A stretch of 63,877 bases of DNA, counting the filler. It is 6 parts of 6 records of this genome, joined end to end, with 100 filler letters (N's around TTAATTAATTAA, not from the genome) between each part and the next. Parts side by side here need not be neighbours in the genome. Positions count along the whole stretch, not along the records: positions 17,026 to 39,286 come from SRR22947727_5857; 5 more parts are not named here. The stretch is one strand, 5' to 3'. The position numbers and the translations under genes are program-made. Shown here in pieces: positions 17,026 through 31,410 of the stretch. The notes beneath the pieces are model-generated. The model was not told the DNA's origin, did not search any database, and worked only from the letters and a program-made list of their open reading frames with translations. The first letter of the stretch is position 1, and every line of letters starts with the position of its first letter.

Positions 17026-17026
17026 T

Positions 17027-18142
17027 AAGTTTGAAGCTTATGGAGAAGAAGAAATAAAAGCTGTAGAAGAATGTCTAAGAGATGGATGGTTAGCTGGATT
17101 TGGACCTAGATCTATTGAATTTGAAGAAAAAATTGCTAAATATTTTGGAAAAAAATTAGGAATATTCGTCAATTCAGGATCATCAGCTTGTTTATTAGCT
17201 ATTGCGGGGTTGAATCTTCCTAAAGGATGTAAAATAATAACTCCGGCATGTACTTTTTCTACTACACTAGCACCTATAATTCAACTAGGTTATAAACCCT
17301 TATTCTGTGATGTTAATTTAACTTCTTATGTTCCTGATGTTTCAGACGTAATTAAATTAATAGATAGTGAAGTTAAAGCTATTATGATTCCTAATTTAAT
17401 AGGTAATAAACCTGATTGGAAGTTATTAAAAGAAGAGTTGAAAAGAATTGGAAGAGAAGATATTTTCCTAATAGAAGATTCAGCAGATACAATGACTTAC
17501 ACCCCAGAAACTGATGTTTCTACTACAAGTTTTTATGCTAGTCATGTTATTACCGCGGGGGGTCAAGGAGGAATGGTGATGTTCAATGATGAAAAACATA
17601 AATTAAGAGCATTATCTTATAGAGATTGGGGGAGAATGGGAGATGATTCTGAAATTATGGATGATAGGTTTAACCATAAAGTGGATGGTATTCCGTATGA
17701 TCATAAATTTTTATATAGTGTATTAGGATATAATATGAAATGTAGTGAAATGAATGCTGCATTTGGTTTAGTTCAGTTAGAAAGATTTCAAAAGTTTGAA
17801 AAAATTAGAAGAAAAAACGTTGAACGTTATTTAGAAAATCTCAAAGACGTAGAAGAAATTATACTCCCAAATGATAATATAAAACCTAACTGGTTGGCTG
17901 TACCCCTCCAATGTGATCGTAGGTTAGACTTATTAATATACTTAGAAAATCAAAACATTCAAACTAGAGTTACTTTCGCAGGGAATGTTACCCGTCATCC
18001 TATTTATAGAGAATATTTACAAGAATTTAAAAATTCAGATACTATTATGGCAAATGGATTTTTATTAGGTGCTCATCACGGTATGACGGTTGAGGATGTT
18101 GATTATGTGTGTAACAAAATAAAAGAATTTTTTGTAAAATGA
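17027..18142 (+). CDS. DegT/DnrJ-family PLP enzyme, ColD/RfbH-like NDP-4-keto-6-deoxyhexose 3-dehydratase (5' truncated)
   Basis: Frame open from the contig start (KFEAYGEEEIKAV...FVNSGSSA); 'SFYASHVITAGGQGG' has His at the usual PLP-Lys position. Confidence 0.85.
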   Translation, partial: KFEAYGEEEIKAVEECLRDGWLAGFGPRSIEFEEKIAKYFGKKLGIFVNSGSSACLLAIAGLNLPKGCKIITPACTFSTTLAPIIQLGYKPLFCDVNLTSYVPDVSDVIKLIDSEVKAIMIPNLIGNKPDWKLLKEELKRIGREDIFLIEDSADTMTYTPETDVSTTSFYASHVITAGGQGGMVMFNDEKHKLRALSYRDWGRMGDDSEIMDDRFNHKVDGIPYDHKFLYSVLGYNMKCSEMNAAFGLVQLERFQKFEKIRRKNVERYLENLKDVEEIILPNDNIKPNWLAVPLQCDRRLDLLIYLENQNIQTRVTFAGNVTRHPIYREYLQEFKNSDTIMANGFLLGAHHGMTVEDVDYVCNKIKEFFVK

Positions 18143-19125
18143 AAAATATTTTTTTAACAGAAGGAAATTGGCAAGGAATAATCCCACAAGATCATCCTGA
18201 TATGCGAAATGATAGTGCATGGATGTATTTATTAAAAGCTACACATCAATGCCTATACAATTATGATCAGGTTAAAGGCTATGATAATGTTTTTATTATG
18301 TTCCCTAAAGGTAATTTAAACCTCAACATGGTCGGAGTAAAAATAGCTAACCATCCTAACCCAATCACTATGTTGTTATCTCAAGACATAGGTTCAACTC
18401 TAAAACAAAATAATAAAAAAGTACACTACATACAAGAAGGTCCTACTTGGTTGTTTAATGATTACGAAATAATAGATCAATTCAATTTCTACAACTTACT
18501 ATCGAGTATGGATACTATATTTGCTCATAACAACTTTGATATAAAATTCTATAAAGGATTGTTTCCTAACAAACACATTACCACAATCCCACCTATCATG
18601 ATTCACCACCATTTATCCGCAATAAAACCTCAACCCGAGAATAAAGTAATAATTGGTGGCAACTTTGCTAGATGGTACGGAGGCTTTCAAAGCTACATTG
18701 TAGCAGATGTTTTTGGTGTTGAGAAATGGATACCTAGCTCTCATGCTCAAAGAGATCATGAAGATCAGATAGAAGATGTAAACCATCTTCCTAGAATGAA
18801 ATGGTTAGATTGGATGAAAACACTGTCTACATTTAAATACGCAGTACACTTAATGCCTACTGCGGCCGCAGGAACTTTTAGTCTCAACTGTGCTTACTTT
18901 GGAATTCCTTGTATAGGTAATAAGACTGTAGATACTCAAAATTTATGCCATCCTAAGCTATCTGTAGATGTTAATGATATAGAGAAAGCACGAGTATTAG
19001 CTATACAGTTAAGAGATGATAAAGAATTTTATACACAATGTAGTGTTGAATGTAAGGAAAAATACCAAGAATGCTATGATGCAGAGAAGTGGAAATCCAA
19101 TATGAAAAGTAAAATACTATTATGA
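18139..19125 (+). CDS. Putative glycosyltransferase (GT-B-like) / hypothetical protein
   Basis: C-terminal 'AAGTFSLNCAYFGIPCIG' resembles the GT4 nucleotide-binding motif; lies in the sugar cluster. Confidence 0.55.
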   Translation: MKNIFLTEGNWQGIIPQDHPDMRNDSAWMYLLKATHQCLYNYDQVKGYDNVFIMFPKGNLNLNMVGVKIANHPNPITMLLSQDIGSTLKQNNKKVHYIQEGPTWLFNDYEIIDQFNFYNLLSSMDTIFAHNNFDIKFYKGLFPNKHITTIPPIMIHHHLSAIKPQPENKVIIGGNFARWYGGFQSYIVADVFGVEKWIPSSHAQRDHEDQIEDVNHLPRMKWLDWMKTLSTFKYAVHLMPTAAAGTFSLNCAYFGIPCIGNKTVDTQNLCHPKLSVDVNDIEKARVLAIQLRDDKEFYTQCSVECKEKYQECYDAEKWKSNMKSKILL

Positions 19126-20030
19126 AAAAAGTTATAATTACAGGAGGAACTGGAACAGTAGGTACATCCTTTATAAAAAAATACTATAATCAATATGAAT
19201 TTTACAGTCTTAGTAGAGGTGAAGAACAAATAGCTGAATTAAAAAACGACTTTCCTAAAGTTACTACTCTAGTAAGAGATATATGTGATTTAGATCAACT
19301 AATAAGCACGTTCGAGCTTATAAAACCTGATATAGTAATTCACGCCGCAGCTATGAAGCATGTAAATTTAGCTGAAGTAAACCCCACTACAGCTGTTAAT
19401 GTTAATTTGAATGGAAGTTTAAATGTAGTAAAAGCGAGTGTGCGAGCAGAGGTACCAATCACAGTAGGTGTTAGTACTGATAAGGCTTGTTCTCCGGAAA
19501 ATATTTATGGGTACACTAAAAAGATGATGGAGATGGTTTTCATGGAACACCATAACTTAAAAACTAAATTTGTATGCACTCGATTTGCAAACGTAGCTAA
19601 TAGTAAAGGCTCTGTAATTCCATTTTTTAAAAAACTATCAGAAGAAAAAATGCCACTTAAATTAACTAGCGTTGACATGAATAGATTAATGTTTTCCACA
19701 GTAGATGCTGCTAAGCTAGTACATGACGCAATTGAATATGCTTCACATTTAGTAGACAGTTTTGTACTATCTACAAAAATGAAATCAGTAAATATGTTAC
19801 AGCTAGCTAAAATATTATCCGATGACATTAAGATTATAGGACTTAGACCAGGAGAAAAACTTGATGAAAATCTAATAAGTGCTAAAGAGTTACCATACAC
19901 CAAAACCATAGATGATTTGATTTTTTTATTTAAAAATAAACAACCTAAAGAATATAATTTACCCAAACCCTTCTCATCCCAAAACGCTACATTTATGTCT
20001 GATGATGAGATTAAAACTTTATTGAAGTAA
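19122..20030 (+). CDS. UDP-GlcNAc 4,6-dehydratase-like (PseB/CapD family SDR)
   Basis: 'ITGGTGTVG', 'HAAAMKHV', 'STDKACSPENIYGYTK', 'RFANVANSKGSVIP', 'GLRPGEKL'. Confidence 0.9.
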   Translation: MKKVIITGGTGTVGTSFIKKYYNQYEFYSLSRGEEQIAELKNDFPKVTTLVRDICDLDQLISTFELIKPDIVIHAAAMKHVNLAEVNPTTAVNVNLNGSLNVVKASVRAEVPITVGVSTDKACSPENIYGYTKKMMEMVFMEHHNLKTKFVCTRFANVANSKGSVIPFFKKLSEEKMPLKLTSVDMNRLMFSTVDAAKLVHDAIEYASHLVDSFVLSTKMKSVNMLQLAKILSDDIKIIGLRPGEKLDENLISAKELPYTKTIDDLIFLFKNKQPKEYNLPKPFSSQNATFMSDDEIKTLLK

Positions 20031-22055
20031 ATGGAGAAGTATAATAAATTTAAAATAGTAATACCATCTTATAATAATCAAGAGTGGATAGAGCCTAACA
20101 TTGCTAGTATTATCAATCAAACATACTCAAACTATGAGGTATTATATATAAACGATGACTCTACTGATAATACTCTACTTACAGTGAAACGAATTATACG
20201 CGAGTATGATTTGAACAATAAATGGACTGTAGTCACAAACGAGATAAACCAAAAACGTGGGTATAATGTTAGTCCATTCAATAAGAATATCATAGAATTT
20301 ATGGACAGTGATGATGATATTTTAGTGTTTGTAGATGGTGATGATTGGTTGGTTGATGATAAGGTTTTAGAAAACTTAAACAACTATTACAATAAACACC
20401 AATCTTGGATGACTTATGGGGGGATGTATTGCTACCCCTCAGGAGATATAGCCAACCCACAAAATACTCCCTATAGTAACGAAGTGCATGCTCATAATTT
20501 ATATAGAAAGGATCATTGGAGAGCTAGTCATCTAAGGTCATTCAAGTGGCATCTGTATAAACAAATTAACGAAAAGGATATGTTGTATAGTAAGACTGGA
20601 AAATATTATTTTCACGCTGAAGATCTAGCTACTTCTTTCCCTTGCTTAGAAATGTGCCCCCAACATAAAATAGGTGTTGTAGATTTTCCAACTTATATGT
20701 TTAACGCTACCCCATCAAATAGAAAACGGGGGGTGCAGAGAGAGGCTGATGCCGGTGAAGCATTAGAGTCTGAGATTAGACATCAAAAACCTTATAAGAC
20801 ATTACACGAACCTCTACAAAGCAAAGACTTATTCAAATGGAATAGATTTGATTTACCAATCAAAACCTTATTTTTGAAGGATTGTAATAGAGGAATTGCT
20901 TTTGGGGAAGAGGTGTACAAAGAACACTTACGTCTATGGAATGATTTTAAGGAGTACAATAACCCAGACAAAAATACTTATAAAAAGTTTCGAGATGATT
21001 TTTTACAAATCGAAAAAGATATACGCAATGGAGAATTTGATTGGGAGAGATCTCCGATTATTGTTGATGGGCAAAACTACTTACTAAATGGATCACACAG
21101 AACAGCCGCAAGCGCATTGGCGAGCACACATGCAGAATTTGAAATTGGCATTGATATGAAAGATGGTCAGAAGGTTTGTGATTATAAGATGTTTAAAGAG
21201 TTGGGATTGAATGAGGATTATATGGATGCAGCCGCTTTGGAGATGGTTCGACATAATAAGAATCTATTGGTGGTGAGTTTATTCCCATCAGCTATTAATA
21301 ATAGACATTTAGTCGATAGTATTTTATTAAAATATTCGAATATCGCATATAAAAAAGATATATTACTTAATTCTAATGGAGCTTTTAATTATACTTTACA
21401 ATTATATAAAGGAGAAGAATGGGCGGGTAGTTGGCATAATAATTTTGGAGGTTTTAGAGATAAAACAAGTTTATGTTTTACTAATAATAATCCTATGACT
21501 GTTTATTTAATAGAATTAAAAGACTTAACTATAGCTAGACAAATTAAAGAAGAAATTCGTCAAATATATAATATAGGTAACCATTCAGTTCATATTAATG
21601 ATACTTATGAAGAAACATTAAGGTTATCTAGATGTTTATTTAATAAAAATAGTGTACATTTTTTAAATAATTCTCAATTAAAAAACTATAGTAGATTTTT
21701 AAATCAATTAAATTATTTTGAACAATATATAATCCAAAATAACTTAGATTTTGAGGATTATTGTATAACAGCAAGTAGTATTTTATCTTTATATGGTTTA
21801 AGAGAAGGTAAAGATTTAGATTATTTACATTTTAATCCTCATATAATACAAGATCACCCTGATATTAATTCACATAATGAATATGGAATAGGGAAATATC
21901 CTAAAGATAAAAATGATATTATATTTAATCCAAATAATCATTTTTATTATGGAAATTTAAAAGTAGCTTCATTAAATATCGTTAAGGAATTAAAAGAAAA
22001 AAGAGGTGAAGAAAAAGATTACACAGATATAAATTTAATAAATTCAATAATATGA
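20031..22055 (+). CDS. Multidomain protein: GT2 glycosyltransferase fused to ParB/Srx-like and nucleotidyltransferase-like regions
   Basis: N-term 'IVIPSYNN...INDDSTD...FVDGDDWL'; middle 'PIIVDGQNYLLNGSHRTAA'; C-term 'ITASSILSLYGLREGKDLDY'. Confidence 0.75.
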   Translation: MEKYNKFKIVIPSYNNQEWIEPNIASIINQTYSNYEVLYINDDSTDNTLLTVKRIIREYDLNNKWTVVTNEINQKRGYNVSPFNKNIIEFMDSDDDILVFVDGDDWLVDDKVLENLNNYYNKHQSWMTYGGMYCYPSGDIANPQNTPYSNEVHAHNLYRKDHWRASHLRSFKWHLYKQINEKDMLYSKTGKYYFHAEDLATSFPCLEMCPQHKIGVVDFPTYMFNATPSNRKRGVQREADAGEALESEIRHQKPYKTLHEPLQSKDLFKWNRFDLPIKTLFLKDCNRGIAFGEEVYKEHLRLWNDFKEYNNPDKNTYKKFRDDFLQIEKDIRNGEFDWERSPIIVDGQNYLLNGSHRTAASALASTHAEFEIGIDMKDGQKVCDYKMFKELGLNEDYMDAAALEMVRHNKNLLVVSLFPSAINNRHLVDSILLKYSNIAYKKDILLNSNGAFNYTLQLYKGEEWAGSWHNNFGGFRDKTSLCFTNNNPMTVYLIELKDLTIARQIKEEIRQIYNIGNHSVHINDTYEETLRLSRCLFNKNSVHFLNNSQLKNYSRFLNQLNYFEQYIIQNNLDFEDYCITASSILSLYGLREGKDLDYLHFNPHIIQDHPDINSHNEYGIGKYPKDKNDIIFNPNNHFYYGNLKVASLNIVKELKEKRGEEKDYTDINLINSII

Positions 22056-22741
22056 AAAATATAGCTATTTTAGCAGCAGGACCTCCTAAACCTAACCATG
22101 TAAACCCAGGATCCCCTAGGAATAGACATTTAGAAAAAATTAACAATATGGTTGTAATTGATCATGTTATAAGTAATTCTAGAATTCCTAATACTAAATT
22201 ATATGTTGTAATTGATTCAAAAAATATAGATTTAATTAATCATGTTGGAAAACAAAGAGATGTTACAATTTTATTTCCTAAAGATGGAAAAATATATAGT
22301 ACATTAGAAGTAGCATTAGAACCTATAGGTGATACAATATTAGTTATGGGTGATTTAATTAACCTAAAAGAAGGAGATATTCAAAAATTTATTGATTCTC
22401 CTTACAAATCTGCAACGTGTATGTACGAACAACCATGGGGGCATCATGTACCATCAAATGTACCTACTCTTATTAGAAGAGGAGATTGTGGGGATTGTAT
22501 TTCTAAAATTGCTCAGGAACATAAAGAAGAGTATTTAAGTTCTGATTTACAATCAATGTGTCATTGGTTTTGGAAACAATTTCACCCCCACTCACAAATG
22601 GATGAATATATACAAAATGACATAGGAACTTTTACATCTTTTACTTTTTTTAAAGAAATATGGTCAAATCCAGAGTGTAATGAATTTGGAGATAAAGGAG
22701 TTATAAAATTTAACCATCAAGTATACTTAGATAATGACTAA
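22052..22741 (+). CDS. NTP-transferase-like protein (possible phosphonate/phosphocholine cytidylyltransferase)
   Basis: N-terminal 'IAILAAG' and 'ILVMGDL' motifs of the NTP_transferase fold; directly upstream of pepM. Confidence 0.55.
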   Translation: MKNIAILAAGPPKPNHVNPGSPRNRHLEKINNMVVIDHVISNSRIPNTKLYVVIDSKNIDLINHVGKQRDVTILFPKDGKIYSTLEVALEPIGDTILVMGDLINLKEGDIQKFIDSPYKSATCMYEQPWGHHVPSNVPTLIRRGDCGDCISKIAQEHKEEYLSSDLQSMCHWFWKQFHPHSQMDEYIQNDIGTFTSFTFFKEIWSNPECNEFGDKGVIKFNHQVYLDND

Positions 22742-22793
22742 TTTATTTAGTTAATTAAAAAAATTTTTACACATTTTAAAAAAATACCTTAAT

Positions 22794-23663
22794 ATGAAAA
22801 CAATTAAACAATTATTAAATGACAATTCAAAAATCCATACAGTTATTGGTGCAAATAACGCATTAATTGCTGAAATAGCTTATAGAGAAGGTTATGATGG
22901 TGTATGGGTATCTAGTTTTGAATCACATGCATGGAATTTACTTCCTGATGCTAATATACTTAATACTACTGATTATTTTGATACTATTAGTAAAATTAGT
23001 GATAGAATTGATATACCTATTCTAGTTGATGCTGATGAAGGGGGACCAAGTTCTATAAATACAATTAGAATGGTTAGAGAATATGAAAAAGCAGGAGCAT
23101 CTGCAATGTGTTTTGAAGATAATCCCTCTCCTAAACGTTGTTCTTTTTATGGGATGAAACAAAGTTTAGAAATTCCTGAACTTATGTGCGGAAAAATTAG
23201 AGCTGCAGTTGAAAAAAGATTAAATAAAGATTTTGCAATTATTACAAGAACCGAAGCTTTAATTCAAGGACATGGTCAAGATGTTGCAATGGAAAGAGCT
23301 AGAATGTATAACGATTCGGGTTGTGATGCTTTCTTGATCCATAGTAAAAGTAAAACACCTGATGAAGTCTTAAAGTTTGCAGATGCATATCATAAAGCTG
23401 GATTGAGAGCACCTTTAGTGTGTGTACCAACTACTTATAACACAGTAAGTAACGATACACTATTTGATGCTGGGATTAGTTTAGCTATATATGCTAATTA
23501 TTCTGTAAGAGCTTCAGTTAAGGCCATTACTGATATATTTAAGAAAATGAAAAAAGGTGGATCCTTATCTGCAGCTAATGATGACATTGTATCAATGGAA
23601 ACTATTTTTGATTTAATTAGAGTTGATCAAATGAAAAAAAATCAAGAGAGATATGGTTCATAA
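22794..23663 (+). CDS. pepM: Phosphoenolpyruvate mutase-like (ICL/PEPM superfamily)
   Basis: 'GYDGVWVSSF', 'LPDAN', 'PILVDADEG', 'FEDNPSPKRCSFY', 'RTEALIQG', 'LIHSKSKTPDE', 'PLVCVPTTY', 'IYAN'; adjacent to ppd and AEP transaminase. Confidence 0.85.
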   Translation: MKTIKQLLNDNSKIHTVIGANNALIAEIAYREGYDGVWVSSFESHAWNLLPDANILNTTDYFDTISKISDRIDIPILVDADEGGPSSINTIRMVREYEKAGASAMCFEDNPSPKRCSFYGMKQSLEIPELMCGKIRAAVEKRLNKDFAIITRTEALIQGHGQDVAMERARMYNDSGCDAFLIHSKSKTPDEVLKFADAYHKAGLRAPLVCVPTTYNTVSNDTLFDAGISLAIYANYSVRASVKAITDIFKKMKKGGSLSAANDDIVSMETIFDLIRVDQMKKNQERYGS

Positions 23664-24051
23664 TTTGTATAAGAAACTTATTACTGAAGGATATAACTTC
23701 TTTACGGGGGTACCCGATAGTGCACTTAAGCCATTCCAAAACTCAATAATACAAAACCATACAGAGGATCATATAATTGCAACAAACGAAGGTCAAGCAA
23801 TTGGGATAGCAGTAGGTGCTGAGTTAGCAGGTAAGAAGGCTTGTGTATATTTACAAAACTCTGGATTAGGAAACACAATCAATCCTCTGACTAGTTTATG
23901 TATTCCCCATGACATTAAACCTTTATTAGTAATAGGACACAGGCACACTTTACCACAACATAAAGTTATGGGTGAAGTTGATGAGGATATGTTGAAGTTG
24001 ATAGGATATGATAATTATATAATAGTAAAGGGTGAAAATAATGTTAAGTAG
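23653..24051 (+). CDS. Phosphonopyruvate decarboxylase, N-terminal (alpha) subunit
   Basis: 'FFTGVPDS', 'ATNEGQAIGIAVG', 'VYLQNSGLGNTINPLTSL', 'PQHKVMG'. Confidence 0.88.
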   Translation: MVHNLYKKLITEGYNFFTGVPDSALKPFQNSIIQNHTEDHIIATNEGQAIGIAVGAELAGKKACVYLQNSGLGNTINPLTSLCIPHDIKPLLVIGHRHTLPQHKVMGEVDEDMLKLIGYDNYIIVKGENNVK

Positions 24052-24505
24052 AAGTCAGGCAATTCAAAATATATTTAAACAACATGGCGAACAAGCCATA
24101 TACATATCTAACACAGGATACTTATCAAGAGCTGTACATAGTGAATTTCCGGATGCTCATAATATTTTCTACATGCAGGGAAGTATGGGTCTTGCTCCAT
24201 GTATTGGGTTAGGGTTAGCAAAAAACACCGATAAAGATGTTGTAGTATTGAGTGGAGATGGTGCTTTGTTGATGCATTACGGTATTGTGTTTAACATAGA
24301 TGAGGCTAATTTAAAAAACCTGCATGTGTATGTTTTAGATAACGGATGTCACGAATCAGTAGGCTCATATAAATGTTCAAAATTGCCTACTAATATTTCA
24401 GGTATTAATAAAATTATAAAAATAAGTTGTGATGGTAAGGTAGATAGAGTTAAATGGGGTTGTCAAGAAAACACAAATAATATAAAAAAATTTATAAATG
24501 AGTAA
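24041..24505 (+). CDS. Phosphonopyruvate decarboxylase, C-terminal TPP-binding (beta) subunit
   Basis: 'TGYLSR', 'FYMQGSMG', 'GDGALLMH', 'LDNGCHESVG'. Confidence 0.88.
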   Translation: MLSRSQAIQNIFKQHGEQAIYISNTGYLSRAVHSEFPDAHNIFYMQGSMGLAPCIGLGLAKNTDKDVVVLSGDGALLMHYGIVFNIDEANLKNLHVYVLDNGCHESVGSYKCSKLPTNISGINKIIKISCDGKVDRVKWGCQENTNNIKKFINE

Positions 24506-25490
24506 TATACTTCTTAATCCAGGTCCTACTAATACAAGATTTTTAACTAAAATAGCTCAATGGTTTGGTTCAGATGTATGTCACAGAACTCCAGAATTTA
24601 GTAAAATATTACAAGAAACTAAAGAAATGTTATTAGTAGAATTTCCCTCTAAATATGCTGCTATTATGGGGGGGAGTGGTACAGCAGCAATGGAATCTAT
24701 GATATCATCTCTTATAAAAAAAGATATTGTAGTAATAAATGCTGGTATATATGGGCAACGTGCTGTTGATATGATGAAAAACTATAAAATAAAATATAAA
24801 GAAATTATATGTAAAAATATAACAGATTTAAAACGTGGTGATAAAAATATCAAAGCAATTTATTTTGTAGAAAACGAAACAACAACTGGAGAACATTTTG
24901 ATGTAAATAAAATGGCGTCTTTATATCCTAATGCAAAGTTATATATTGATTCAACCTCATCTTTTGGTGCTTCAGATTATTCAAAAGTATATCATAGAAT
25001 AGAAGCTTTATGTTTTTGTAGTAATAAATGTTTACAATCAACACCAGGTTTAGGTATAGTTCTTTTTAATAAAAAATGTATAATTAAAGATCGATCATAT
25101 TATTTAAATCTAAATAAATATACTAGTACAGACAAAATACCGTTTACTTTACCTGTTCAGTCAGTTTATGCTTTACATAAAACTCTAAAATTAATAAATT
25201 ATTCTAATCAACACATAACTTTCAATCAAAGAAGAGATAAATTAATTAAAACATTAGAAGCGTTAGGAATTCGTTGTATAAACCAAAACCCTAGCAATTC
25301 TATCATAGGATTTCAACATCCTACTTTAAGTTATGAAAAGCTAAGAGATCATCTATCAAAAAAGGGAATCATAATATATTCAGGTATACCTGGAATTAAT
25401 AATAGTTTTCGATTATCAACTATGAGTGTGTTGTTTGATAAAAAGTTTAACCTTATAAAAAAAATACTCCATGACACGTGTGTATGTTGA
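24498..25490 (+). CDS. 2-aminoethylphosphonate:pyruvate transaminase (PhnW/AepZ-like, class V)
   Basis: 'LLNPGPTN', 'DVCHR', 'GSGTAAMES', 'ENETTTG', 'DSTSSFG', 'SNKCLQSTPGL'. Confidence 0.88.
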   Translation: MSNILLNPGPTNTRFLTKIAQWFGSDVCHRTPEFSKILQETKEMLLVEFPSKYAAIMGGSGTAAMESMISSLIKKDIVVINAGIYGQRAVDMMKNYKIKYKEIICKNITDLKRGDKNIKAIYFVENETTTGEHFDVNKMASLYPNAKLYIDSTSSFGASDYSKVYHRIEALCFCSNKCLQSTPGLGIVLFNKKCIIKDRSYYLNLNKYTSTDKIPFTLPVQSVYALHKTLKLINYSNQHITFNQRRDKLIKTLEALGIRCINQNPSNSIIGFQHPTLSYEKLRDHLSKKGIIIYSGIPGINNSFRLSTMSVLFDKKFNLIKKILHDTCVC

Positions 25491-25875
25491 TATGGTTGGT
25501 GATTTATTTCATGTTGGACATCTTAACATGTTTAAACAAGCTAGAACCTATGGTGATTATTTAATTGTAGGTATTCATTCTGATAAAACAGTTGAATCCT
25601 ATAAGAGAACACCTATAATTAAACAAGAAGACAGATACCAAATAATAGCAAATTGTAAATTAGTAGATCAGGTAATTGAAAATGCCCCATTAAAAGTTAC
25701 TAAGGATTTTATACTTAGTAATAATATTCATTATGTTGTTCATGGTGATGATTTAAATACTAAATCAACAGAAATGATGTACAGTATACCTATAAAATTA
25801 GGTATTATGAAAACAACCCACTACACTAAAGGAATATCAACTTCAGAAATTATAAATAAAATTAAACAAATATGA
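25471..25875 (+). CDS. HxGH cytidylyltransferase (glycerol-3-P / phosphoethanolamine type; probable AEP activation)
   Basis: 'DMVGDLFHVGH', 'VGIHSD', 'VVHGDD', 'YTKGISTS'. Confidence 0.88.
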   Translation: MTRVYVDMVGDLFHVGHLNMFKQARTYGDYLIVGIHSDKTVESYKRTPIIKQEDRYQIIANCKLVDQVIENAPLKVTKDFILSNNIHYVVHGDDLNTKSTEMMYSIPIKLGIMKTTHYTKGISTSEIINKIKQI

Positions 25876-26585
25876 AATCAGTATTAGACGTTCCTTTTTA
25901 TATATCTACAAACAATAAACATCTCCATGTATTACAAGTATTTATTGATCTGTTTAACAAACATTTAACATCTCAACAAGAACTACATATTTTAGGGTAT
26001 GACCACCCTAAATATACATTACCAGCCAATTGCAAATTTATTTCTATGGGAAAGCAAGGATCAGTCAATGAGTGGTCAACAGATTTGCGTAAGTTTTTTT
26101 TGAGTTGTAACGATCCTTTTTTTATATATGGTACTGAAGATGCTTTTATTTATGAGGATGTTAATGTTAAGTTTATTAATCGTCTAGTTGATTTCGCTAA
26201 AACAAATAAGGGTGTGGGTCGTGTTGATTTAAGAGATGCACCATTACACCATTATAAAACATCTCTTGAAGAAAGTTATGTTAATAGTTGGGGGAGTTGG
26301 GATTTATTAAAACTTAATAAACCCGAAAGTGATTGTGCTATAACATGCCAGTTTTCTGTGTGGAATAAACAATATTTTATGAGGTACTTACAAGATGGTT
26401 TATCTCCTTGGGCATTTGAAGGCACTGCTAGGCAAGCTCGTTATGATAAGAATTTTGATGTATATTTAGTAGATAAAACATATCCTATAAGAATTGCTGA
26501 AGGATATACTCAAGGTATATGGACTGAAAAAGATAAATGGTATCATTTATTAGATGATAAAATAAAAAAACAAGTATTTAATTAA
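25872..26585 (+). CDS. Hypothetical protein, glycosyltransferase-like
   Basis: 'IYGTEDAF', 'QFSVWNK', 'SPWAFE' pattern of polysaccharide-cluster proteins. Confidence 0.5.
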   Translation: MKSVLDVPFYISTNNKHLHVLQVFIDLFNKHLTSQQELHILGYDHPKYTLPANCKFISMGKQGSVNEWSTDLRKFFLSCNDPFFIYGTEDAFIYEDVNVKFINRLVDFAKTNKGVGRVDLRDAPLHHYKTSLEESYVNSWGSWDLLKLNKPESDCAITCQFSVWNKQYFMRYLQDGLSPWAFEGTARQARYDKNFDVYLVDKTYPIRIAEGYTQGIWTEKDKWYHLLDDKIKKQVFN

Positions 26586-26589
26586 AATC

Positions 26590-27006
26590 ATGGAAAAAAT
26601 TTATTCAAAAGTAGAACCTGGTAAGCTACTACATATAATTAATAGATTATCTGAAATAGAAGAAAGAAAAGAAATAGTGCCTAAAGATAATTTTATTCAA
26701 TGTGCTACCCTTAAAATGAAAAAAAATAAAACATTTTTACCCCATAAACACATTGAAAAAGATAGACATTATTCTAAACAAATAGCCCAAGAATCATGGG
26801 TAATAATACAAGGTAGTGTCAAATGTACACTTTATGATATTGATGATACTATAATAGCCGAACCTATATTACAACCAGGAGATGCAAGTTTTACTTTATA
26901 TGGTGGTCATACATACATTATATTAGAAGATAATACTTTAGTGTATGAATATAAAACAGGCCCTTATGAAGGTCAAAAATTAGATAAAACTTTTATAAAT
27001 AGTTAA
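26590..27006 (+). CDS. WbuC-like cupin-fold protein
   Basis: 'PHKH', 'QESW', 'GGHTY', 'EYKTGPY'. Confidence 0.75.
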   Translation: MEKIYSKVEPGKLLHIINRLSEIEERKEIVPKDNFIQCATLKMKKNKTFLPHKHIEKDRHYSKQIAQESWVIIQGSVKCTLYDIDDTIIAEPILQPGDASFTLYGGHTYIILEDNTLVYEYKTGPYEGQKLDKTFINS

Positions 27007-27018
27007 AATAAATACATT

Positions 27019-27699
27019 ATGGATAAAGATATAGATAAAAATTATTTTAAAAATAAATTAAAAAAAGATGACCCTATTATATTTGATGTGGGAACATTTG
27101 ATGGAAACGATTGTTTAGAATTTTTAAAAATTTTTGATACTCCTACAATTTATGCGTTTGAAGGGGATGATAGATCAATTAATACTTTTAAAAAATATAT
27201 AAAAGATTCCCCTATTAATTTGGTTGAAACCCTTCTATCAAATGTAGATGGGTTTATTGATTTTTATAAAAGTGAGAGTGATGTAAGGAGACATGATAGA
27301 TATGATTTTGAAGAAACGTGTTGGTCTGCATCTAGTTCAACAAAAAAACCTAAAAACCATTTAACTGTATTTCCCGATATTAATTTCCCCGAACCTGTAA
27401 AAACTAAATCTCAACGTTTAGACACATGGATAAAGAATAAAAATATAAAACTAATTGATATTATGTGGGTAGATGTTAATGGGGGTGAAGAAGGATTTTT
27501 AGAAGGTGGAATAAATACCATTAATAATAAAGTAAAGTATCTATATATAGAATTTAATGGTGTAGAAGATCAAAAATTATATGAAGGATGTTTTACTAAA
27601 GGTGATATATTATCTAAATTACCTAATTTTAATGAATTAGGAGTTTTTAATTTTATGGGGAATTTTGGCAATGTATTATTAGAAAATAAAACAATATAA
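27019..27699 (+). CDS. FkbM family methyltransferase (NoeI-like sugar O-methyltransferase)
   Basis: 'IFDVGTFDG', 'YAFE', 'RLDTW', 'IDIMWVDVNGGE'. Confidence 0.85.
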   Translation: MDKDIDKNYFKNKLKKDDPIIFDVGTFDGNDCLEFLKIFDTPTIYAFEGDDRSINTFKKYIKDSPINLVETLLSNVDGFIDFYKSESDVRRHDRYDFEETCWSASSSTKKPKNHLTVFPDINFPEPVKTKSQRLDTWIKNKNIKLIDIMWVDVNGGEEGFLEGGINTINNKVKYLYIEFNGVEDQKLYEGCFTKGDILSKLPNFNELGVFNFMGNFGNVLLENKTI

Positions 27700-28295
27700 T
27701 GAGTTTTAAAATAGTAAATAAATTTGAAAATAAAATAGCTAAATTTTTTGGTTCCCCATATGCAGTTGCAGTAGATTGTTGTACTCATGGTGTTGAATTA
27801 TGTTTAAGGTATAAAAAAATAAAAATTATTCAAGTTCCTAAACATACTTATATTTCAATACCATTTTTAGCTAAGAAGTTAGGAATTGGTTTAGAGTGGA
27901 AAGATGAAGATTGGCAAGATTATTATTATTTAACCCCTAATATTATCGATGCTGCGGTTTTATGGAAATCTGATAGTTATATCCCAAATACTTTTATGAA
28001 CATCTCATTTCAGTTTAGAAAACATTTGGCTTTAGGTAGAGGAGGTTGTATATTAACGGATAATAAAGAAGCAGCATTAAAATTGAAGAAGATGAGCTAT
28101 GATGGTAGGTTACCTGATATTCCCTGGAGAGAACAAGATATAGAAACTATGGGTTATCATTATTATATGACCCCAGAAACTGCTAATTTAGGAATAGAAA
28201 AATTGCCAGATGCCATAAAAATTAAACCCAAACAATGGACTATTAATGATTGGCCTAATGTATCAAAAATGAAAGTATTTAATAAATTAATATGA
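27699..28295 (+). CDS. Short DegT/DnrJ family aminotransferase
   Basis: 'FENKIAKFFGSPYAVAVDCCT', 'IDAA', 'SFQFRKHLALGRGG' (PLP Lys present); only 198 aa. Confidence 0.78.
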   Translation: MSFKIVNKFENKIAKFFGSPYAVAVDCCTHGVELCLRYKKIKIIQVPKHTYISIPFLAKKLGIGLEWKDEDWQDYYYLTPNIIDAAVLWKSDSYIPNTFMNISFQFRKHLALGRGGCILTDNKEAALKLKKMSYDGRLPDIPWREQDIETMGYHYYMTPETANLGIEKLPDAIKIKPKQWTINDWPNVSKMKVFNKLI

Positions 28296-29284
28296 AAAAG
28301 ATAGCATTTATAACAGGTATTGGAGGTCAAGATGGTAGTTATCTTGCAGAATATTTAGTTGAATTAGGATATGAAGTTCATGGTATTATTAGAAGACATT
28401 CAACTGCTGAAACTCAAGAAAATAGAATAGATCATTTAATTAATAATGGTAAAGTTACTACATATTATGGAGATTTATTAGATCAAGGAGGTATAGAAAG
28501 ACTTCTAGATAAAATACAACCTGATGAAATATATAACATAGCAGCTCAATCTCATGTAAGGATTAGTTTTGATATCCCACAATTTACAGTTCAAACAAAT
28601 GCATTAGGAGTTTTAAATATGTTAGAAGCTTATAGACGTTCATGCCCCAATGCAAAATTTTACCAAGCATCATCTTCAGAAATGTTCGGGTTATCTGTTG
28701 AAGATGATAATTTTCAAAGAGAAACCACTACAATGAATCCAGTATCACCTTATGGGTGCTCTAAAGTATTTGGTTATAATATTGTAAGAAATTATAGACG
28801 TGCCTATGGTTTACATGCCACTAATGGTATATTATTTAATCACGAATCACCAAGAAGAGGATCTAATTTTGTAACTAATAAAGTTGTCAAAGCTGCAGTA
28901 AGAATTAAATTAGGTTTACAAGATAAATTAGAATTAGGTAATATGGATTCTTATAGAGATTGGGGTCATTCATATGATTATGTAAGAGCAATGCATTTAA
29001 TGGTGCAACATGATAATCCAGGTGATTGGGTAGTATCAACAATGGAAACTCACTCAGTAAGAGAAATGTGTGAATTAGTATTTAATCATTTAGATTTAGA
29101 TTATAAAGATTATGTAGTACAAAATCCTAAGTATTTACGACCAGAAGAATTGCCTTATTTAAGAGGGGATTCAACTAAAATTAGAACTGAGTTAGGTTGG
29201 AAACCAACTTATACATTTAAAAGAATGATGGAAGAAATGGTTGATCATTGGTATATTACTACTAAACAAATTATTAATAAATAA
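28292..29284 (+). CDS. gmd: GDP-mannose 4,6-dehydratase
   Basis: 'ITGIGGQDGSYL', 'AAQSHV', 'YQASSSE', 'SPYGCSK', 'FNHESPRRG', 'RDWG'. Confidence 0.95.
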   Translation: MKKIAFITGIGGQDGSYLAEYLVELGYEVHGIIRRHSTAETQENRIDHLINNGKVTTYYGDLLDQGGIERLLDKIQPDEIYNIAAQSHVRISFDIPQFTVQTNALGVLNMLEAYRRSCPNAKFYQASSSEMFGLSVEDDNFQRETTTMNPVSPYGCSKVFGYNIVRNYRRAYGLHATNGILFNHESPRRGSNFVTNKVVKAAVRIKLGLQDKLELGNMDSYRDWGHSYDYVRAMHLMVQHDNPGDWVVSTMETHSVREMCELVFNHLDLDYKDYVVQNPKYLRPEELPYLRGDSTKIRTELGWKPTYTFKRMMEEMVDHWYITTKQIINK

Positions 29285-29290
29285 AACTAA

Positions 29291-30247
29291 ATGAAGAAGA
29301 CAGTTTATATAACAGGATGTTTAGGGTTTATAGGATCTTACATAACACGCACATGCCTAAAAAAAGGTTGGTATGTTAAAGGAGTAGATAAAATGACATA
29401 TGCTTCTAATAAAGGATTGTTAAAAGAATTTAATAAATATTTAAATTTTTCATTTGTAAAATGTGATATAAATGATTTAGAATTTTTATATGAATGTGAT
29501 TATGTTATAAATACTGCGGCTGAAACTCACGTTGGGAATAGTATAGTTAAAAGTGATGGTTTTATACATTCAAACATTAATGGGGTACATCATTTACTAG
29601 AATTAATTAGAAATTATAGGGGTGAAGGGAAAGATAAACCAACACTACTACATTTTAGTACAGATGAAGTATACGGAGATGTAACAGAAGGAGAACATTT
29701 GGAAACCGATATATTAAAACCTAGTAATCCTTATTCAGCAACAAAGGCAGCAGCCGATCAACTTATATTAGCTTGGGCTAGAACTTATGGATTGCCTTAT
29801 GTTATTGTAAGACCTACTAATAATTATGGAATAGGGCAATACACCGAAAAATTAATACCTAAATCCATTAAATATTTAGGTTTAGGGAAAAAAATTCCTT
29901 TACACAATAATGGAACACCTATTAGAAATTGGTTACATGCTCAAGATACAGCAGATGCTGTGATTAAAATAATTGAATCTCAAACTAGCAATGAAATATT
30001 TAACATTGCTGGAGGGTTTGAACAATCTAATTTGAATACCGTAAAGAAAATTATTACCTTATGGGATAGTAATAACTCCCTGAATTTGTTTGGACAATTG
30101 GATTTGAGTTATTCAAGAATAGGACAAGATATTAGATATGCTCTAAATGATAGTAAATTAAGAGATATAGGATGGGAACCTAAAAAAATATTTGATGAGG
30201 AATTACCTGAAATAGTTGAATATTATAAAGAAAATTTTATATGGTAA
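29291..30247 (+). CDS. dTDP-glucose 4,6-dehydratase (RmlB-like)
   Basis: 'GCLGFIGS', 'DKMTYA', 'AAETHV', 'STDEVYGD', 'NPYSATKA', 'NNYG', 'EKLIP'. Confidence 0.9.
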   Translation: MKKTVYITGCLGFIGSYITRTCLKKGWYVKGVDKMTYASNKGLLKEFNKYLNFSFVKCDINDLEFLYECDYVINTAAETHVGNSIVKSDGFIHSNINGVHHLLELIRNYRGEGKDKPTLLHFSTDEVYGDVTEGEHLETDILKPSNPYSATKAAADQLILAWARTYGLPYVIVRPTNNYGIGQYTEKLIPKSIKYLGLGKKIPLHNNGTPIRNWLHAQDTADAVIKIIESQTSNEIFNIAGGFEQSNLNTVKKIITLWDSNNSLNLFGQLDLSYSRIGQDIRYALNDSKLRDIGWEPKKIFDEELPEIVEYYKENFIW

Positions 30248-30867
30248 AGGAAGAATTAATTAAGTTTGAAACAAGAATAGGAGATGCTTTTAATAAAGGT
30301 AAAATAAAAGCACCAATTCATTTATATCATAATAATGAAGATCAAATGATTGAAATATTTAAAGATATAGATATTAAGAATGATTGGGTATGTTGTACTT
30401 GGAGAAATCATTACCAAGGGTTATTAAAAGGAATCCCTCCAAAAATAATGGAAGAAAATATAAAAGAAGGTAAATCAATGGTAGCCAATTTACCTAAATA
30501 TAAGTTTATATGTAGTTCAATAGTTGGTGGGATTCCTTCAATTGCAGCTGGTATTGCTTTATCAATTAAATTACAAAAGAAAAAAAACAGAGTTTGGTGT
30601 TGGGTTGGAGATATGAGTGCAGAAACTGGTCATTTTCATGAAGCCTATAAATATTCATTAAATCATAATTTACCTGTTACATTTATAGTAGAAGATAATA
30701 AAAAATCAGTATGTACACCAACACCTGATATTTGGAAAAGAAATACTCCATATTTTTTAGAATCTGAATATAAGGGGGGGATTTTAAAACAGAAGAATCT
30801 AATTTACTATCAATACGATAATACTAAATACCCACATGCCGGAGCAGGTATGAGGGTTCAATTTTAA
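30241..30867 (+). CDS. TPP-dependent dehydrogenase E1 alpha-like subunit (short)
   Basis: 'APIHLY', 'TWRNHY', 'SSIVGG', 'GDMSAETG', 'FIVEDN'. Confidence 0.85.
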   Translation: MVKEELIKFETRIGDAFNKGKIKAPIHLYHNNEDQMIEIFKDIDIKNDWVCCTWRNHYQGLLKGIPPKIMEENIKEGKSMVANLPKYKFICSSIVGGIPSIAAGIALSIKLQKKKNRVWCWVGDMSAETGHFHEAYKYSLNHNLPVTFIVEDNKKSVCTPTPDIWKRNTPYFLESEYKGGILKQKNLIYYQYDNTKYPHAGAGMRVQF

Positions 30868-30873
30868 TAAAAT

Positions 30874-31410
30874 ATGAAATATTCTGAAGAAATAGTAAAA
30901 GCAATGAGTATGTTAGCTGATAATCCTAAAACCGTATTTATAGGACAGGCAGTTGAGTATGAAGGGACTGGATTATATGATTCATTATCTCATATACCTA
31001 AAGACAAAAGAATGGAATTACCAGTTGCAGAATACCTACAATCAGGTCTAGCAAATGGTATGGCTATAGAAGGTTTGATTCCGGTTTCAACATTCCCAAG
31101 ATGGAATTTTCTATTAATGGGAACTGATCAGATAGTAAACCATTTAGACAAATTTAAAAATATGTCTAATGGTATATTAACCCCAAGGGTTATAATTAGA
31201 GTAGCTGTTGGTAGTGAACACCCAGTTGATCCCCAATGTCAACATAAAGGTAACTTTTCAGAAGCATTTAGAAATATGACTAGTAATACAGAAGTTATTG
31301 AATTAATTGAACCTGAAGATATCCTCCCGGCTTACACTAAAGCGTTAAATAGAACAGATGGTGTAAATACTATATTAGTAGAATTTGCTGATTATTGTAA
31401 GACAAAATAA
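30874..31410 (+). CDS. TPP-dependent dehydrogenase E1 beta-like subunit (pyrimidine-binding domain only)
   Basis: 'FIGQAV', 'ELPVAE', 'GMAIEG', 'DQIVNH', 'QH'. Confidence 0.82.
   Translation: MKYSEEIVKAMSMLADNPKTVFIGQAVEYEGTGLYDSLSHIPKDKRMELPVAEYLQSGLANGMAIEGLIPVSTFPRWNFLLMGTDQIVNHLDKFKNMSNGILTPRVIIRVAVGSEHPVDPQCQHKGNFSEAFRNMTSNTEVIELIEPEDILPAYTKALNRTDGVNTILVEFADYCKTK

What the first reader, a model, noticed from the sequence alone, without database searches (positions are those of the whole stretch)
22052..25875. Complete 2-aminoethylphosphonate (C-P bond) biosynthesis module on a phage-like contig
Seen: consecutive, mostly overlapping genes for an NTP-transferase-like protein, a PEP mutase-like enzyme, a two-subunit phosphonopyruvate decarboxylase, an AEP transaminase and an HxGH cytidylyltransferase, embedded in a ~17 kb sugar-nucleotide/glycosyltransferase cluster. 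Established: PepM -> Ppd -> AEP transaminase is the canonical route PEP -> phosphonopyruvate -> phosphonoacetaldehyde -> 2-AEP, and cytidylyltransferases activate AEP for transfer to glycans or lipids. Inference: the rest of the contig looks like a large Bacteroidota phage, so this would be a virus making a phosphonoglycan. Possible uses are decorating virion proteins, remodelling the host surface for superinfection exclusion, or hypermodifying DNA. It would also make viruses a direct source of marine phosphonates.
Basis: partly seen in the sequence, partly recalled or inferred. Interest (0 to 1): 0.93.

Follow-up and report, generated by a model that had tools for sequence, protein, structure and literature searches.

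The report
Phage-borne aminoethylphosphonate glycan gene module
A fragment of a large marine phage carries what looks like a full set of genes for making the carbon-phosphorus compound 2-aminoethylphosphonate inside a sugar-decoration locus, but its key enzyme lacks the signature that published surveys use to recognise such enzymes.

Summary
The six genes are real and sit at the stated coordinates. In order they are a nucleotidyltransferase-fold protein, a PEP-mutase-like protein, a two-subunit phosphonopyruvate-decarboxylase-like enzyme, an AEP-transaminase-like protein and an HxGH cytidylyltransferase.

The window is six contigs joined by N/TTAATTAATTAA linkers. Only segment 3 (17026-39286, 28.8% GC) is context; the other segments I annotated encode cellular genes.

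Segment 3 has no terminase, capsid or portal. It is nevertheless collinear with the cultured Flavobacterium phage Immutovirus. The same module also lies on 12 IMG/VR contigs. Of these, G001, G002, G003 and G006 also carry a terminase and/or a major capsid protein. The phage reading is therefore supported.

One caveat matters. The PEP-mutase-like protein reads EDNPSPKRCS where the diagnostic EDKX5NS motif should be, and the N…KRCS form is kept in all 120 nearest homologues. It also scores below the equivalog cut-off. Its chemistry is inferred, not shown.

My best reading, at confidence 0.6, is that the phage makes AEP and CMP-AEP and adds them to a glycan. All the enzymes look soluble, so the target may be the virion. 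In print I found only one virus-encoded AEP pathway, on a giant-virus MAG contig (PMC8942020).

The parts
17026..39286 (+). Segment 3: a separate 22,261-bp contig at 28.8% GC. It is a fragment of an Immutovirus-like tailed phage, and all 33 called ORFs are on the + strand.
   Evidence: Linkers at 16926-17025 and 39287-39386. ORFs. Collinearity with MW353176.
17026..18142 (+). DegT/PseC-type sugar aminotransferase, cut at its 5' end by the contig end
   Evidence: PF01041 at 181 bits, covering only profile positions 63-359 of 360. Sequence at the junction.
19122..20030 (+). Polysacc_synt_2 (PseB/CapD-like) NDP-sugar dehydratase
   Evidence: PF02719 at 211.5 bits
20031..22055 (+). 674-aa glycosyltransferase: an N-terminal GT2 domain followed by a long extension of unknown function
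   Evidence: PF00535 at 63.8 bits, residues 9-160. Conserved in G001, G002 and G003 at 35-51% identity.
22052..22741 (+). 229-aa nucleotidyltransferase-fold protein, a candidate PntC-like cytidylyltransferase
   Evidence: No Pfam hit. AF2 pLDDT 87.2. Foldseek matches G1P-thymidylyltransferase, GlmU and PntC-AEPT 6pd2, with TMq 0.54-0.64. Atlas lead to PF12804.
22794..23663 (+). PEP-mutase-like protein of the non-canonical EDNx3KRCS subfamily
   Evidence: PF13714 at 122 bits; TIGR02320 at 243 bits, below cut-off. PDB PEP mutase 5unc at 199 bits, PPH 2dua at 187 bits, lyases at 101 bits or less. Motif.
23653..24051 (+). Phosphonopyruvate-decarboxylase-like alpha subunit (TPP N-terminal domain)
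   Evidence: TIGR03297 positions 2-124 at 119.5 bits. Best PDB match 9iz3_A, 'putative phosphonopyruvate decarboxylase alpha subunit'.
24032..24505 (+). Phosphonopyruvate-decarboxylase-like beta subunit (TPP C-terminal domain). The start is either GTG at 24032 or ATG at 24041.
   Evidence: TIGR03297 positions 170-297 at 103.7 bits. Best PDB match 9iz3_B.
24498..25490 (+). Class-V aminotransferase, AEP-transaminase-like
   Evidence: TIGR03301 at 169.4 bits, below cut-off; PF00266
25471..25875 (+). 134-aa HxGH cytidylyltransferase (PF01467)
   Evidence: PF01467 at 76.5 bits. HVGH and KGISTS are visible in the sequence.
25872..26585 (+). 237-aa conserved protein of unknown family, weakly GT-A-like; a candidate transferase
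   Evidence: No Pfam hit. AF2 pLDDT 59.1. Foldseek GT6/KdsB matches at TM 0.33-0.46. Conserved in the cluster.
26590..29284 (+). WbuC cupin, FkbM methyltransferase, short DegT-like protein and GDP-mannose 4,6-dehydratase
   Evidence: Gmd is 91% identical to the G001 and G002 copies.
29291..34174 (+). NDP-sugar epimerase/reductase, split TPP E1/transketolase-like pair, second epimerase, SAM methyltransferase and a 424-aa GT2
   Evidence: The GT2 is 31% identical to the Immutovirus glycosyltransferase at the syntenic place.
35146..36016 (+). DksA-like zinc-finger protein followed by an HNH endonuclease, the same pair as in Immutovirus
   Evidence: phrog_54 and phrog_14736. 43% and 50% identity to MW353176 at 60.9-61.9 kb.
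36497..37057 (+). Glucosaminidase-type endolysin with a hydrophobic N-terminal segment
   Evidence: PF01832. phrog_21890. 45.7% identity over 98% of its length to the Immutovirus endolysin. Hydrophobic window at residues 15-33.

Best explanation
Segment 3 is a fragment of a large tailed phage of the Immutovirus-like, distantly T4-like lineage. Its host is probably a marine member of the Bacteroidota.

This phage lineage keeps a glycan-biosynthesis locus at a fixed place in the genome, between a PD-(D/E)XK nuclease with two GT4 glycosyltransferases on one side and a DksA-like/HNH pair on the other. The middle of that locus varies between phages. In the marine members it holds a phosphonate module.

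The inferred pathway is:
- the PEP-mutase-like enzyme converts PEP to phosphonopyruvate;
- the two-subunit TPP decarboxylase pulls that unfavourable equilibrium forward by making phosphonoacetaldehyde;
- the class-V aminotransferase makes 2-aminoethylphosphonate (AEP);
- one or both nucleotidyltransferases (the PntC-like fold protein and the PF01467 HxGH enzyme) make CMP-AEP;
- a transferase, perhaps the conserved 237-aa GT-A-like protein or the long GT2, adds AEP to a glycan built from the GDP-/NDP-amino-deoxy-sugars that the flanking genes make.

None of the cluster's proteins looks membrane-bound, and there is no flippase, polymerase or initiating transferase. The acceptor is therefore more likely cytoplasmic, such as virion proteins before assembly, than an exported host polysaccharide.

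What is shown: the gene content, the conservation, the phage location and the purifying selection. What is inferred: every chemical step and the target.
For: Phage location:
- Segment 3's 209-aa HNH protein is 50.3% identical over 91% of its length to Flavobacterium phage vB_FspM_immuto, and its endolysin is 45.7% identical over 98%.
- Five segment 3 genes are collinear with MW353176 at 56.7-61.9 kb.

Relatives:
- 7 IMG/VR contigs carry a PepM-like protein at 80-91% identity, and 5 more carry one at 63-66%.
- The five-gene core is present in each locus that extends far enough to show it.
- G001 (115.6 kb, 121 of 121 ORFs on one strand) carries baseplate, tail fibre, TerL, portal, major head protein and adaptor genes.
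- G003 has a TerL. G002 and G006 have the major capsid protein.
- Ten G001 genes flanking the module are collinear with Immutovirus.

Pathway:
- The best family hits are PEP mutase, Ppd and AEP transaminase.
- The solved two-subunit putative Ppd 9iz3 is the best PDB relative of both decarboxylase subunits.
- Proteins carrying the same EDN..K.CS variant occur fused to PF12804 nucleotidyltransferase (4 of the 10 scanned) or to a TPP N-domain (1 of 10). Rice et al. describe this architecture for Ppm (PMC6697681, passages).

Selection: pN/pS is 0.13 for the PepM-like gene and 0.19-0.43 for the other core genes, with synonymous sites saturated.

Soluble pathway: a Kyte-Doolittle scan found no convincing membrane segment in the 21 cluster proteins of segment 3, nor in the G001 ORFs from 94 kb onward.
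Against: - The PepM-like protein fails the motif that defines Ppm. It reads EDNPSPKRCS where EDKX5NS is expected.
- It scores 243 bits against a 319.55-bit cut-off for TIGR02320. The Ppd and AEPT matches are also below their equivalog cut-offs.
- No member of this variant subfamily is known to me to have been assayed.
- Segment 3 itself has no terminase, capsid or portal gene.
- 11 of its 12 ORFs downstream of 34.2 kb had no match in the first seven IMG/VR loci or in G001-G003, and two IMG/VR scans with its proteins found nothing.
- The 229-aa protein has no sequence-level family match.
- The 237-aa model is of low confidence.
- The membrane scan is crude.
- The best TerL match of G001 is a phage reported on Microcystis, not on Bacteroidota.
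Confidence: 0.6

Rival explanations
1. The genes are on a phage, but the PepM-like enzyme is not a PEP mutase. With Cys in place of the motif's Asn, and with a KRC triplet that recalls the lyase signature, it may carry out a different reaction (lyase- or hydrolase-type) on another 2-oxo acid. The decarboxylase, transaminase and cytidylyltransferases would then make and activate a non-phosphonate amine.
For: - EDNPSPKRCS replaces EDKX5NS, and the N…KRCS form is kept in 120 of 120 nearest homologues.
- All three core enzymes score below their equivalog cut-offs.
- The non-canonical variants form their own part of the tree: a 36-tip clade holds 16 of 17 N..C tips and only 2 of 92 K..N tips.
- That the KRC triplet resembles the methylisocitrate/isocitrate lyase K(K/R)CGH signature is my recollection, not a tool result.
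Against: - The protein scores much higher against solved PEP mutases and phosphonopyruvate hydrolase (199, 187 and 167 bits) than against lyases (101 bits or less). The alignment runs to the C-terminus and keeps the DxD, Arg and His positions.
- Variant proteins are fused to PntC-type nucleotidyltransferase or to a Ppd N-domain.
- The decarboxylase halves score higher for Ppd than for sulfopyruvate decarboxylase.
- A cytidylyltransferase needs a phosphoryl or phosphonyl substrate, and the PEP route supplies one.
Confidence: 0.2
2. The phage does make CMP-AEP, but the target is the host cell envelope rather than the virion. The phosphonoglycan would change receptors during infection, blocking superinfection or resisting enzymes and grazers.
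For: - Published work places bacterial AEP on cell-surface glycans and glycoproteins and links it to escape from phages and grazers (PMC8931226 and PMC6697681, passages).
- PHROGs gives a weak GtrB-like O-antigen-conversion hit for the 674-aa GT2 (E = 0.00023).
Against: - There is no flippase, polymerase, initiating phosphoglycosyltransferase or other membrane protein in the cluster in segment 3 or G001.
- I saw no integrase in what I annotated of segment 3 or G001, so lysogenic conversion has no support here. I did not scan every ORF of G001.
Confidence: 0.15
3. The 22-kb contig is a bacterial surface-polysaccharide island, and the phage-like genes at its 3' end are an unrelated prophage remnant.
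For: - Segment 3 has no hallmark virion gene.
- It was deposited together with cellular contigs of similar low GC, segments 4 and 5.
Against: - Two scans of about 185,000 species' genomes found no relative. Those scans are limited to exact peptide patterns.
- The glycan genes themselves, not only the 3' genes, are collinear with Immutovirus and with G001.
- All 12 related contigs found are in IMG/VR, and 4 of them have hallmark genes.
- All 33 ORFs lie on one strand.
Confidence: 0.04

Closest known systems
Bacterial phosphonyl-tailoring (pnt / aepXYZ-type) clusters: Ppm, Ppd, AEPT plus PntC cytidylyltransferase (Rice et al. 2019, PMC6697681; Li & Horsman 2022, PMC8942020)
   Same: It has the same gene set and order logic. 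Both nucleotidyltransferase families that those papers find next to Ppm (PF12804-like and PF01467) are present, and glycan genes flank the module.
   Different: It is carried by a phage. The Ppm-like enzyme has EDNx3KRCS in place of EDKX5NS. Ppd is split and short (132 + 157 aa against a 360-position model). No membrane or export genes are present.
The single virus-encoded AEP pathway in print: one NCLDV metagenome-assembled contig, GCF 881 (PMC8942020, passages read)
   Same: It is a virus-borne Ppm/Ppd/AEPT core followed by amino-sugar genes, and was read as a viral phosphonoglycan.
   Different: That case is a giant eukaryotic virus MAG with a Ppm-Ppd fusion that passed the EDKX5NS filter. 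This one is a tailed phage lineage with separate genes and a variant motif. The same paper scanned RefSeq viruses and 364 huge phages; it found no Ppm in the RefSeq viral genomes and kept a single viral gene neighbourhood, the NCLDV one.
Flavobacterium phage vB_FspM_immuto (genus Immutovirus; MW353176)
   Same: The genome order is shared: GroES/GroEL, PD-(D/E)XK nuclease, two glycosyltransferases, a variable glycan block, then short DegT-like, epimerase, GT, DksA-like and HNH. Its endolysin is also related, though it lies elsewhere in the immuto record, at about 22 kb.
   Different: Its variable block holds aminotransferase, methyltransferase and mannosyltransferase genes and no PepM-like gene. 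No immuto record is among the 5 phage records that match PepM.
Two-subunit putative phosphonopyruvate decarboxylase, PDB 9iz3/9iz4
   Same: It is the best solved relative of both subunits, so a split Ppd has precedent.
   Different: The relationship is distant (50 and 66 bits). The phage subunits are shorter: 132 and 157 aa against 181 and 186 aa.

Membership tests
PEP mutase (Ppm/PepM) | [quoted passage not shown] | tested here: met
   PF13714 at 122 bits against a 31.5-bit cut-off. PDB PEP mutases score 199 and 167 bits, PPH 187 bits, lyases 101 bits or less.
PEP mutase (Ppm/PepM) | The EDKX5NS motif, used as the defining filter in PMC8931226, PMC6697681 and PMC8942020 | tested here: not met
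   The sequence is EDNPSPKRCS. It is invariant in the 7 aligned viral copies, and the N…KRCS form is kept in 120 of 120 nearest database homologues.
PEP mutase (Ppm/PepM) | Score above the equivalog cut-off of TIGR02320 | tested here: not met
   243.1 bits against a 319.55-bit cut-off. It is still the best-scoring model.
PEP mutase (Ppm/PepM) | Adjacent phosphonopyruvate decarboxylase to pull the equilibrium | tested here: met
   The decarboxylase subunit genes overlap the 3' end of the gene, and this is conserved in all loci that reach that far.
PEP mutase (Ppm/PepM) | Conversion of PEP to phosphonopyruvate | not testable with these tools
   Needs an enzyme assay or 31P NMR.
Phosphonopyruvate decarboxylase (Ppd) | TIGR03297 equivalog score, with a better fit than to sulfopyruvate decarboxylase | tested here: inconclusive
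   The halves score 119.5 and 103.7 bits, which even summed is below the 312.5-bit cut-off. Both exceed the ComD/ComE models at 72.1 and 91.7 bits. The best PDB relative is the split putative Ppd 9iz3.
AEP transaminase (PhnW/AepZ) | TIGR03301 equivalog score | tested here: not met
   169.4 bits against a 360.8-bit cut-off. It is the best-scoring model, ahead of other class-V aminotransferases.
PntC (PF12804-type phosphonate cytidylyltransferase) | Sequence match to PF12804, nucleotidyltransferase fold, AEP specificity | tested here: inconclusive
   No Pfam or NCBIfam hit at E<=0.01, and no PDB hit with a 7-sequence profile. The fold matches nucleotidyltransferases, including PntC 6pd2, at TMq 0.56. 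Specificity is untestable here.
Cytidylyltransferase-like (PF01467) | Pfam match and HxGH motif | tested here: met
   76.5 bits against a 21-bit cut-off. HVGH is in the sequence.
Tailed phage genome (Caudoviricetes, Immutovirus-like) | Hallmark genes (terminase, portal, major capsid) on the same molecule | tested here: not met
   None is present on the 22-kb segment 3. They are present on the related contigs G001, G002, G003 and G006 that carry the same module.
Tailed phage genome (Caudoviricetes, Immutovirus-like) | Homology and gene order shared with a cultured phage | tested here: met
   Five collinear genes at 24-50% identity, plus the endolysin at 45.7%.
Und-P-linked surface polysaccharide (Wzx/Wzy-type) locus | Initiating transferase, flippase and polymerase; membrane proteins | tested here: not met
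   No such Pfam families were found, and a crude hydropathy scan found no convincing membrane segment.

The most novel reading that the evidence does not exclude
A widespread lineage of marine tailed phages produces phosphonates itself. It uses a non-canonical PEP mutase (EDNx3KRCS) that every motif-filtered survey of marine phosphonate producers has excluded by design. It places AEP on a glycan that coats the virion, at a hypervariable 'serotype-like' locus of the phage genome. Phages would then use the same surface chemistry that their hosts are proposed to use against them.
Probability: 0.35. Interest if true: 0.85.

Novelty: new variant of a known kind. Interest (0 to 1): 0.72.

Why it matters
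Phosphonates make up a large share of marine dissolved organic phosphorus. Published surveys assign their production to cells that carry a PepM with the EDKX5NS motif, and they suggest that surface phosphonates help cells escape phages (PMC8931226, passages read).

This work points to three things:
- The full AEP gene set sits in a conserved glycan locus of a real phage lineage.
- Its PepM-like enzyme belongs to a large family that those filters remove. The family has 744 database proteins at E<=1e-20, and the nearest 120 all carry the variant.
- Related variant enzymes are fused to the usual phosphonate partner domains.

If the enzyme is active, viral infection is a direct source of phosphonates, and current gene-based budgets undercount producers. 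The finding also gives a concrete case for studying phage-made glycans.

Tried and rejected
- Whole-genome context: no genome is held for this window.
- Cellular relatives: two scans of genome contigs, one with the protein and one with a 7-sequence alignment, found none. These scans need exact peptide patterns, so this is weak evidence of absence.
- IMG/VR scans with segment 3's endolysin and its 160-aa protein found nothing. The 240-aa protein gave only one partial relative and four N-terminal matches, with no shared neighbours.
- The 147-aa protein has no match among 50,697 phage records.
- Profile searches of the PDB with the 229-aa and 237-aa families gave nothing meaningful.
- PHROGs has no family for the PepM-like, PpdA, AEPT, 229-aa or 237-aa proteins.
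- The Acinetobacter 'phage' hits to PepM are annotated prpB at 31% identity, and I set them aside.
- A megaphage preprint that matched 'pepM' only mentions PepMap columns.
- A note from an earlier scan about a Nitrospinota Ppm fusion did not bear on this case.
- DNA hypermodification as the use of AEP: I found nothing for it in this cluster, which is made of sugar-nucleotide and glycosyltransferase genes. I keep it at about 5%.
- I did not use complex prediction, sequencing-run look-ups or read mapping.

Full report
**1. What the window is**

The GC content falls from about 0.53 to about 0.29 near 17 kb and rises again near 58.5 kb. Reading the two edges showed runs of N around the six-frame stop linker TTAATTAATTAA. 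A script found five such 100-nt linkers. The window is therefore six separate contigs:

| Segment | Coordinates | GC |
|---|---|---|
| 1 | 1-7818 | 0.506 |
| 2 | 7919-16925 | 0.551 |
| 3 | 17026-39286 | 0.288 |
| 4 | 39387-47333 | 0.322 |
| 5 | 47434-58449 | 0.346 |
| 6 | 58550-63877 | 0.591 |

Segments 2, 4, 5 and 6 encode cellular genes: AspRS, a carB fragment, class I FBA, Dtd, GGT, tRNA-Ala, SMC, ZipA, a LigA cut at the contig end, and sarcosine oxidase. Segment 1 encodes TetR, an enoyl-CoA hydratase, an EamA transporter and a family-A DNA polymerase that I did not follow up. None of these segments can be used as context for the finding, which lies wholly in segment 3. No whole genome is held for this window.

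**2. The observation**

The six ORFs are present on the + strand with small overlaps.
- The best family for 22794-23663 is PEP mutase: PF13714 at 122 bits and TIGR02320 at 243 bits.
- The best family for 23653-24051 and 24032-24505 is the two halves of phosphonopyruvate decarboxylase TIGR03297. Both halves score above the sulfopyruvate decarboxylase subunit models.
- The best family for 24498-25490 is AEP aminotransferase TIGR03301.
- The best family for 25471-25875 is the PF01467 cytidylyltransferase.
- All three core matches are below their equivalog cut-offs.

The first gene (22052-22741) has no sequence-family match. It gives a confident model (pLDDT 87.2) with a nucleotidyltransferase fold. 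The solved phosphonate cytidylyltransferase PntC-AEPT is among its top ten matches.

The best solved relative of both decarboxylase subunits is a two-subunit putative Ppd, 9iz3.

The flanking 17 kb encodes sugar aminotransferases, dehydratases, epimerases, methyltransferases, a cupin, a split TPP enzyme and two GT2 glycosyltransferases.

**3. The motif problem**

The PepM-like protein reads EDNPSPKRCS where solved PEP mutases read EDKrfPKvNS or EDKlfPKtNS, and where phosphonopyruvate hydrolase reads EDKtfPKdTS. The rest of the alignment, including the DxD, Arg and His positions and the C-terminal part, is kept. The protein scores 199, 187 and 167 bits against the mutase/hydrolase structures and 101 bits or less against the lyases.

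How far the variant extends:
- It is invariant in the seven aligned viral copies.
- The N…KRCS form is kept in 120 of the 120 nearest database proteins, which are 62-94% identical.
- Among the query plus the 150 best representatives of 1.84 billion proteins, 94 have EDK..K.NS, 21 have EDN..K.CS and 13 have EDN..K.NS.
- On a FastTree of the 141 sequences with at least 80% coverage (10 short rows dropped), a 36-tip clade holds 16 of the 17 N..C tips, 9 of the 13 N..N tips and 2 of the 92 K..N tips.
- Of ten variant proteins scanned, four are fused to a PF12804 nucleotidyltransferase and one to a TPP N-domain.

So the variant lives in phosphonate-type architectures. However, three published surveys use EDKX5NS as their filter (PMC8931226, PMC6697681 and PMC8942020; passages read) and would have discarded it. 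I know of no assay of a member of this subfamily.

**4. Is it a phage?**

Segment 3 has no terminase, portal or capsid gene. Its 3' part holds small same-strand ORFs, a DksA-like protein, an HNH endonuclease and a glucosaminidase endolysin.
- The HNH protein is 50.3% identical over 91% of its length to Flavobacterium phage vB_FspM_immuto, and the endolysin is 45.7% identical over 98%.
- Five segment 3 genes (27699, 29291, 32900, 35146, 35387) are collinear with the immuto record at 56.7-61.9 kb.

Independently, the PepM-like protein found seven IMG/VR contigs at 80-91% identity, and a more distant member found five more (63-66% identity to the window protein).
- The block from GT2 to Gmd is conserved in G001, G002 and G003.
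- The five-gene core is present in every locus that extends far enough.
- G001 (115.6 kb, CheckV estimate 60% complete) has all 121 called ORFs on one strand. It carries baseplate wedge, tail fibre, SbcCD, TerL, portal, major head protein and head-tail adaptor genes.
- G003 has a TerL.
- G002 has a major capsid protein 87% identical to G001's, and G006 has one at 40-45%.
- No capsid match was found on G007, G008 or G009, which are fragments.
- The nearest cultured phages to G001 are Microcystis phage Mel-JY01 (TerL 58.6%), the immuto phages (52.8%) and, further off, Rhodothermus phage RM378.
- Ten G001 genes around the module are collinear with the immuto record: GroES, GroEL, PD-(D/E)XK nuclease, two GT4 and others, and after the module the short DegT-like and epimerase-type genes.

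The glycan locus is thus a fixed feature of this phage lineage with a variable middle. The cultured freshwater/brackish phage has other sugar genes there, and the marine relatives have the phosphonate module. Two pattern-based scans of about 185,000 species' genomes found no cellular copy.

**5. Function**

The core genes are under purifying selection. pN/pS is 0.13 for the PepM-like gene and 0.19-0.43 for the others, with synonymous sites saturated.

I infer the canonical route PEP → phosphonopyruvate → phosphonoacetaldehyde → AEP → CMP-AEP, followed by transfer to a glycan. The pathway steps are established knowledge of Ppm/Ppd/AEPT/PntC (PMC6697681, PMC8942020). Their application here is inference.

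A crude hydropathy scan found no convincing membrane segment in the cluster proteins of segment 3 or G001, and no flippase, polymerase or initiating transferase family was detected. This favours a cytoplasmic acceptor such as virion proteins over an exported polysaccharide, but only weakly. The 237-aa conserved protein is a candidate transferase on a low-confidence GT-A-like model.

**6. Literature**

Nine searches of the held library gave no paper on a phage-encoded AEP pathway.
- PMC8942020 (passages read) reports one NCLDV MAG contig with Ppm-Ppd and AEPT as 'a virus-encoded phosphonate'. It reports no Ppm in the RefSeq viral genomes, and although 364 huge phages were also scanned, only that one viral gene neighbourhood was kept.
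- PMC8931226 (passages) treats phosphonates as a host defence against phages and does not mention viral pepM.
- PMC9381506 has no occurrence of virus, viral or phage.
- GenBank already annotates a 'phosphoenolpyruvate mutase' in Vibrio phage Va2, 28.5% identical to this one.

**7. Verdict**

The claim 'complete AEP biosynthesis' is probable but unproven, because the key enzyme fails its defining motif. I rate this a new variant of a known kind, with interest 0.72.

Noticed in passing
window 7819-7918, 16926-17025, 39287-39386, 47334-47433, 58450-58549: There are five 100-nt linkers (N44-TTAATTAATTAA-N44), so the window is a concatenation of six contigs with very different GC (0.29-0.59). Genes are cut at several contig ends: DegT at 17026, LigA at 58449, and a carB fragment at 7863-8699. 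The mix of GC values suggests a bin of more than one organism.
   Followed up: yes
window 4215-7697 (segment 1): A 591-aa family-A DNA polymerase, followed on the same strand by two proteins with no Pfam family (5987-6577 and 7065-7697). GC dips to 0.36-0.47 at 6.8-8.1 kb, part of which spans the N-rich linker at 7819-7918. This may be another mobile or phage fragment.
   Followed up: no
window 49028-58449 (segment 5): GGT, tRNA-Ala(GGC), SMC, ZipA and a truncated NAD-dependent LigA at 33-35% GC. This is a cellular contig. From memory, the smc-zipA-ligA order looks gammaproteobacterial. No link to the phage contig was shown.
   Followed up: partly
L028 (Vibrio phage Va2, MW073017.1, 104.8-110.9 kb): A cultured 128-kb vibriophage has an annotated 434-aa 'phosphoenolpyruvate mutase' and a 366-aa TPP-binding protein lying among dUTPase and ribonucleotide reductase genes. 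It is 28.5% identical to the window protein. This is a second, unrelated phage context for a PepM-like gene.
   Followed up: partly
window 30241-31410: A split TPP-dependent E1/transketolase-like pair (208 + 178 aa) sits inside the glycan cluster and is absent from G001-G003. Its substrate is unknown.
   Followed up: no
L035/L034 (Flavobacterium phage vB_FspM_immuto_3-5A, MW353176.1, 49-60 kb): The cultured Immutovirus carries an 11-kb glycan locus of its own, with four or more glycosyltransferases, two WecE-type aminotransferases, a methyltransferase, a 'pilin glycosylation protein' and an epimerase. It sits at the place where the marine relatives carry the phosphonate module. A preprint listing (10.1101/2023.04.13.536721, title and listing only) links this phage to 7-deazaguanine DNA modification.
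   Followed up: partly
window 37126-37569: A 147-aa protein with a C-x-C...C-x-H zinc-finger-like motif near its C-terminus. It has no Pfam or PHROG family and no match in 50,697 phage records.
   Followed up: partly
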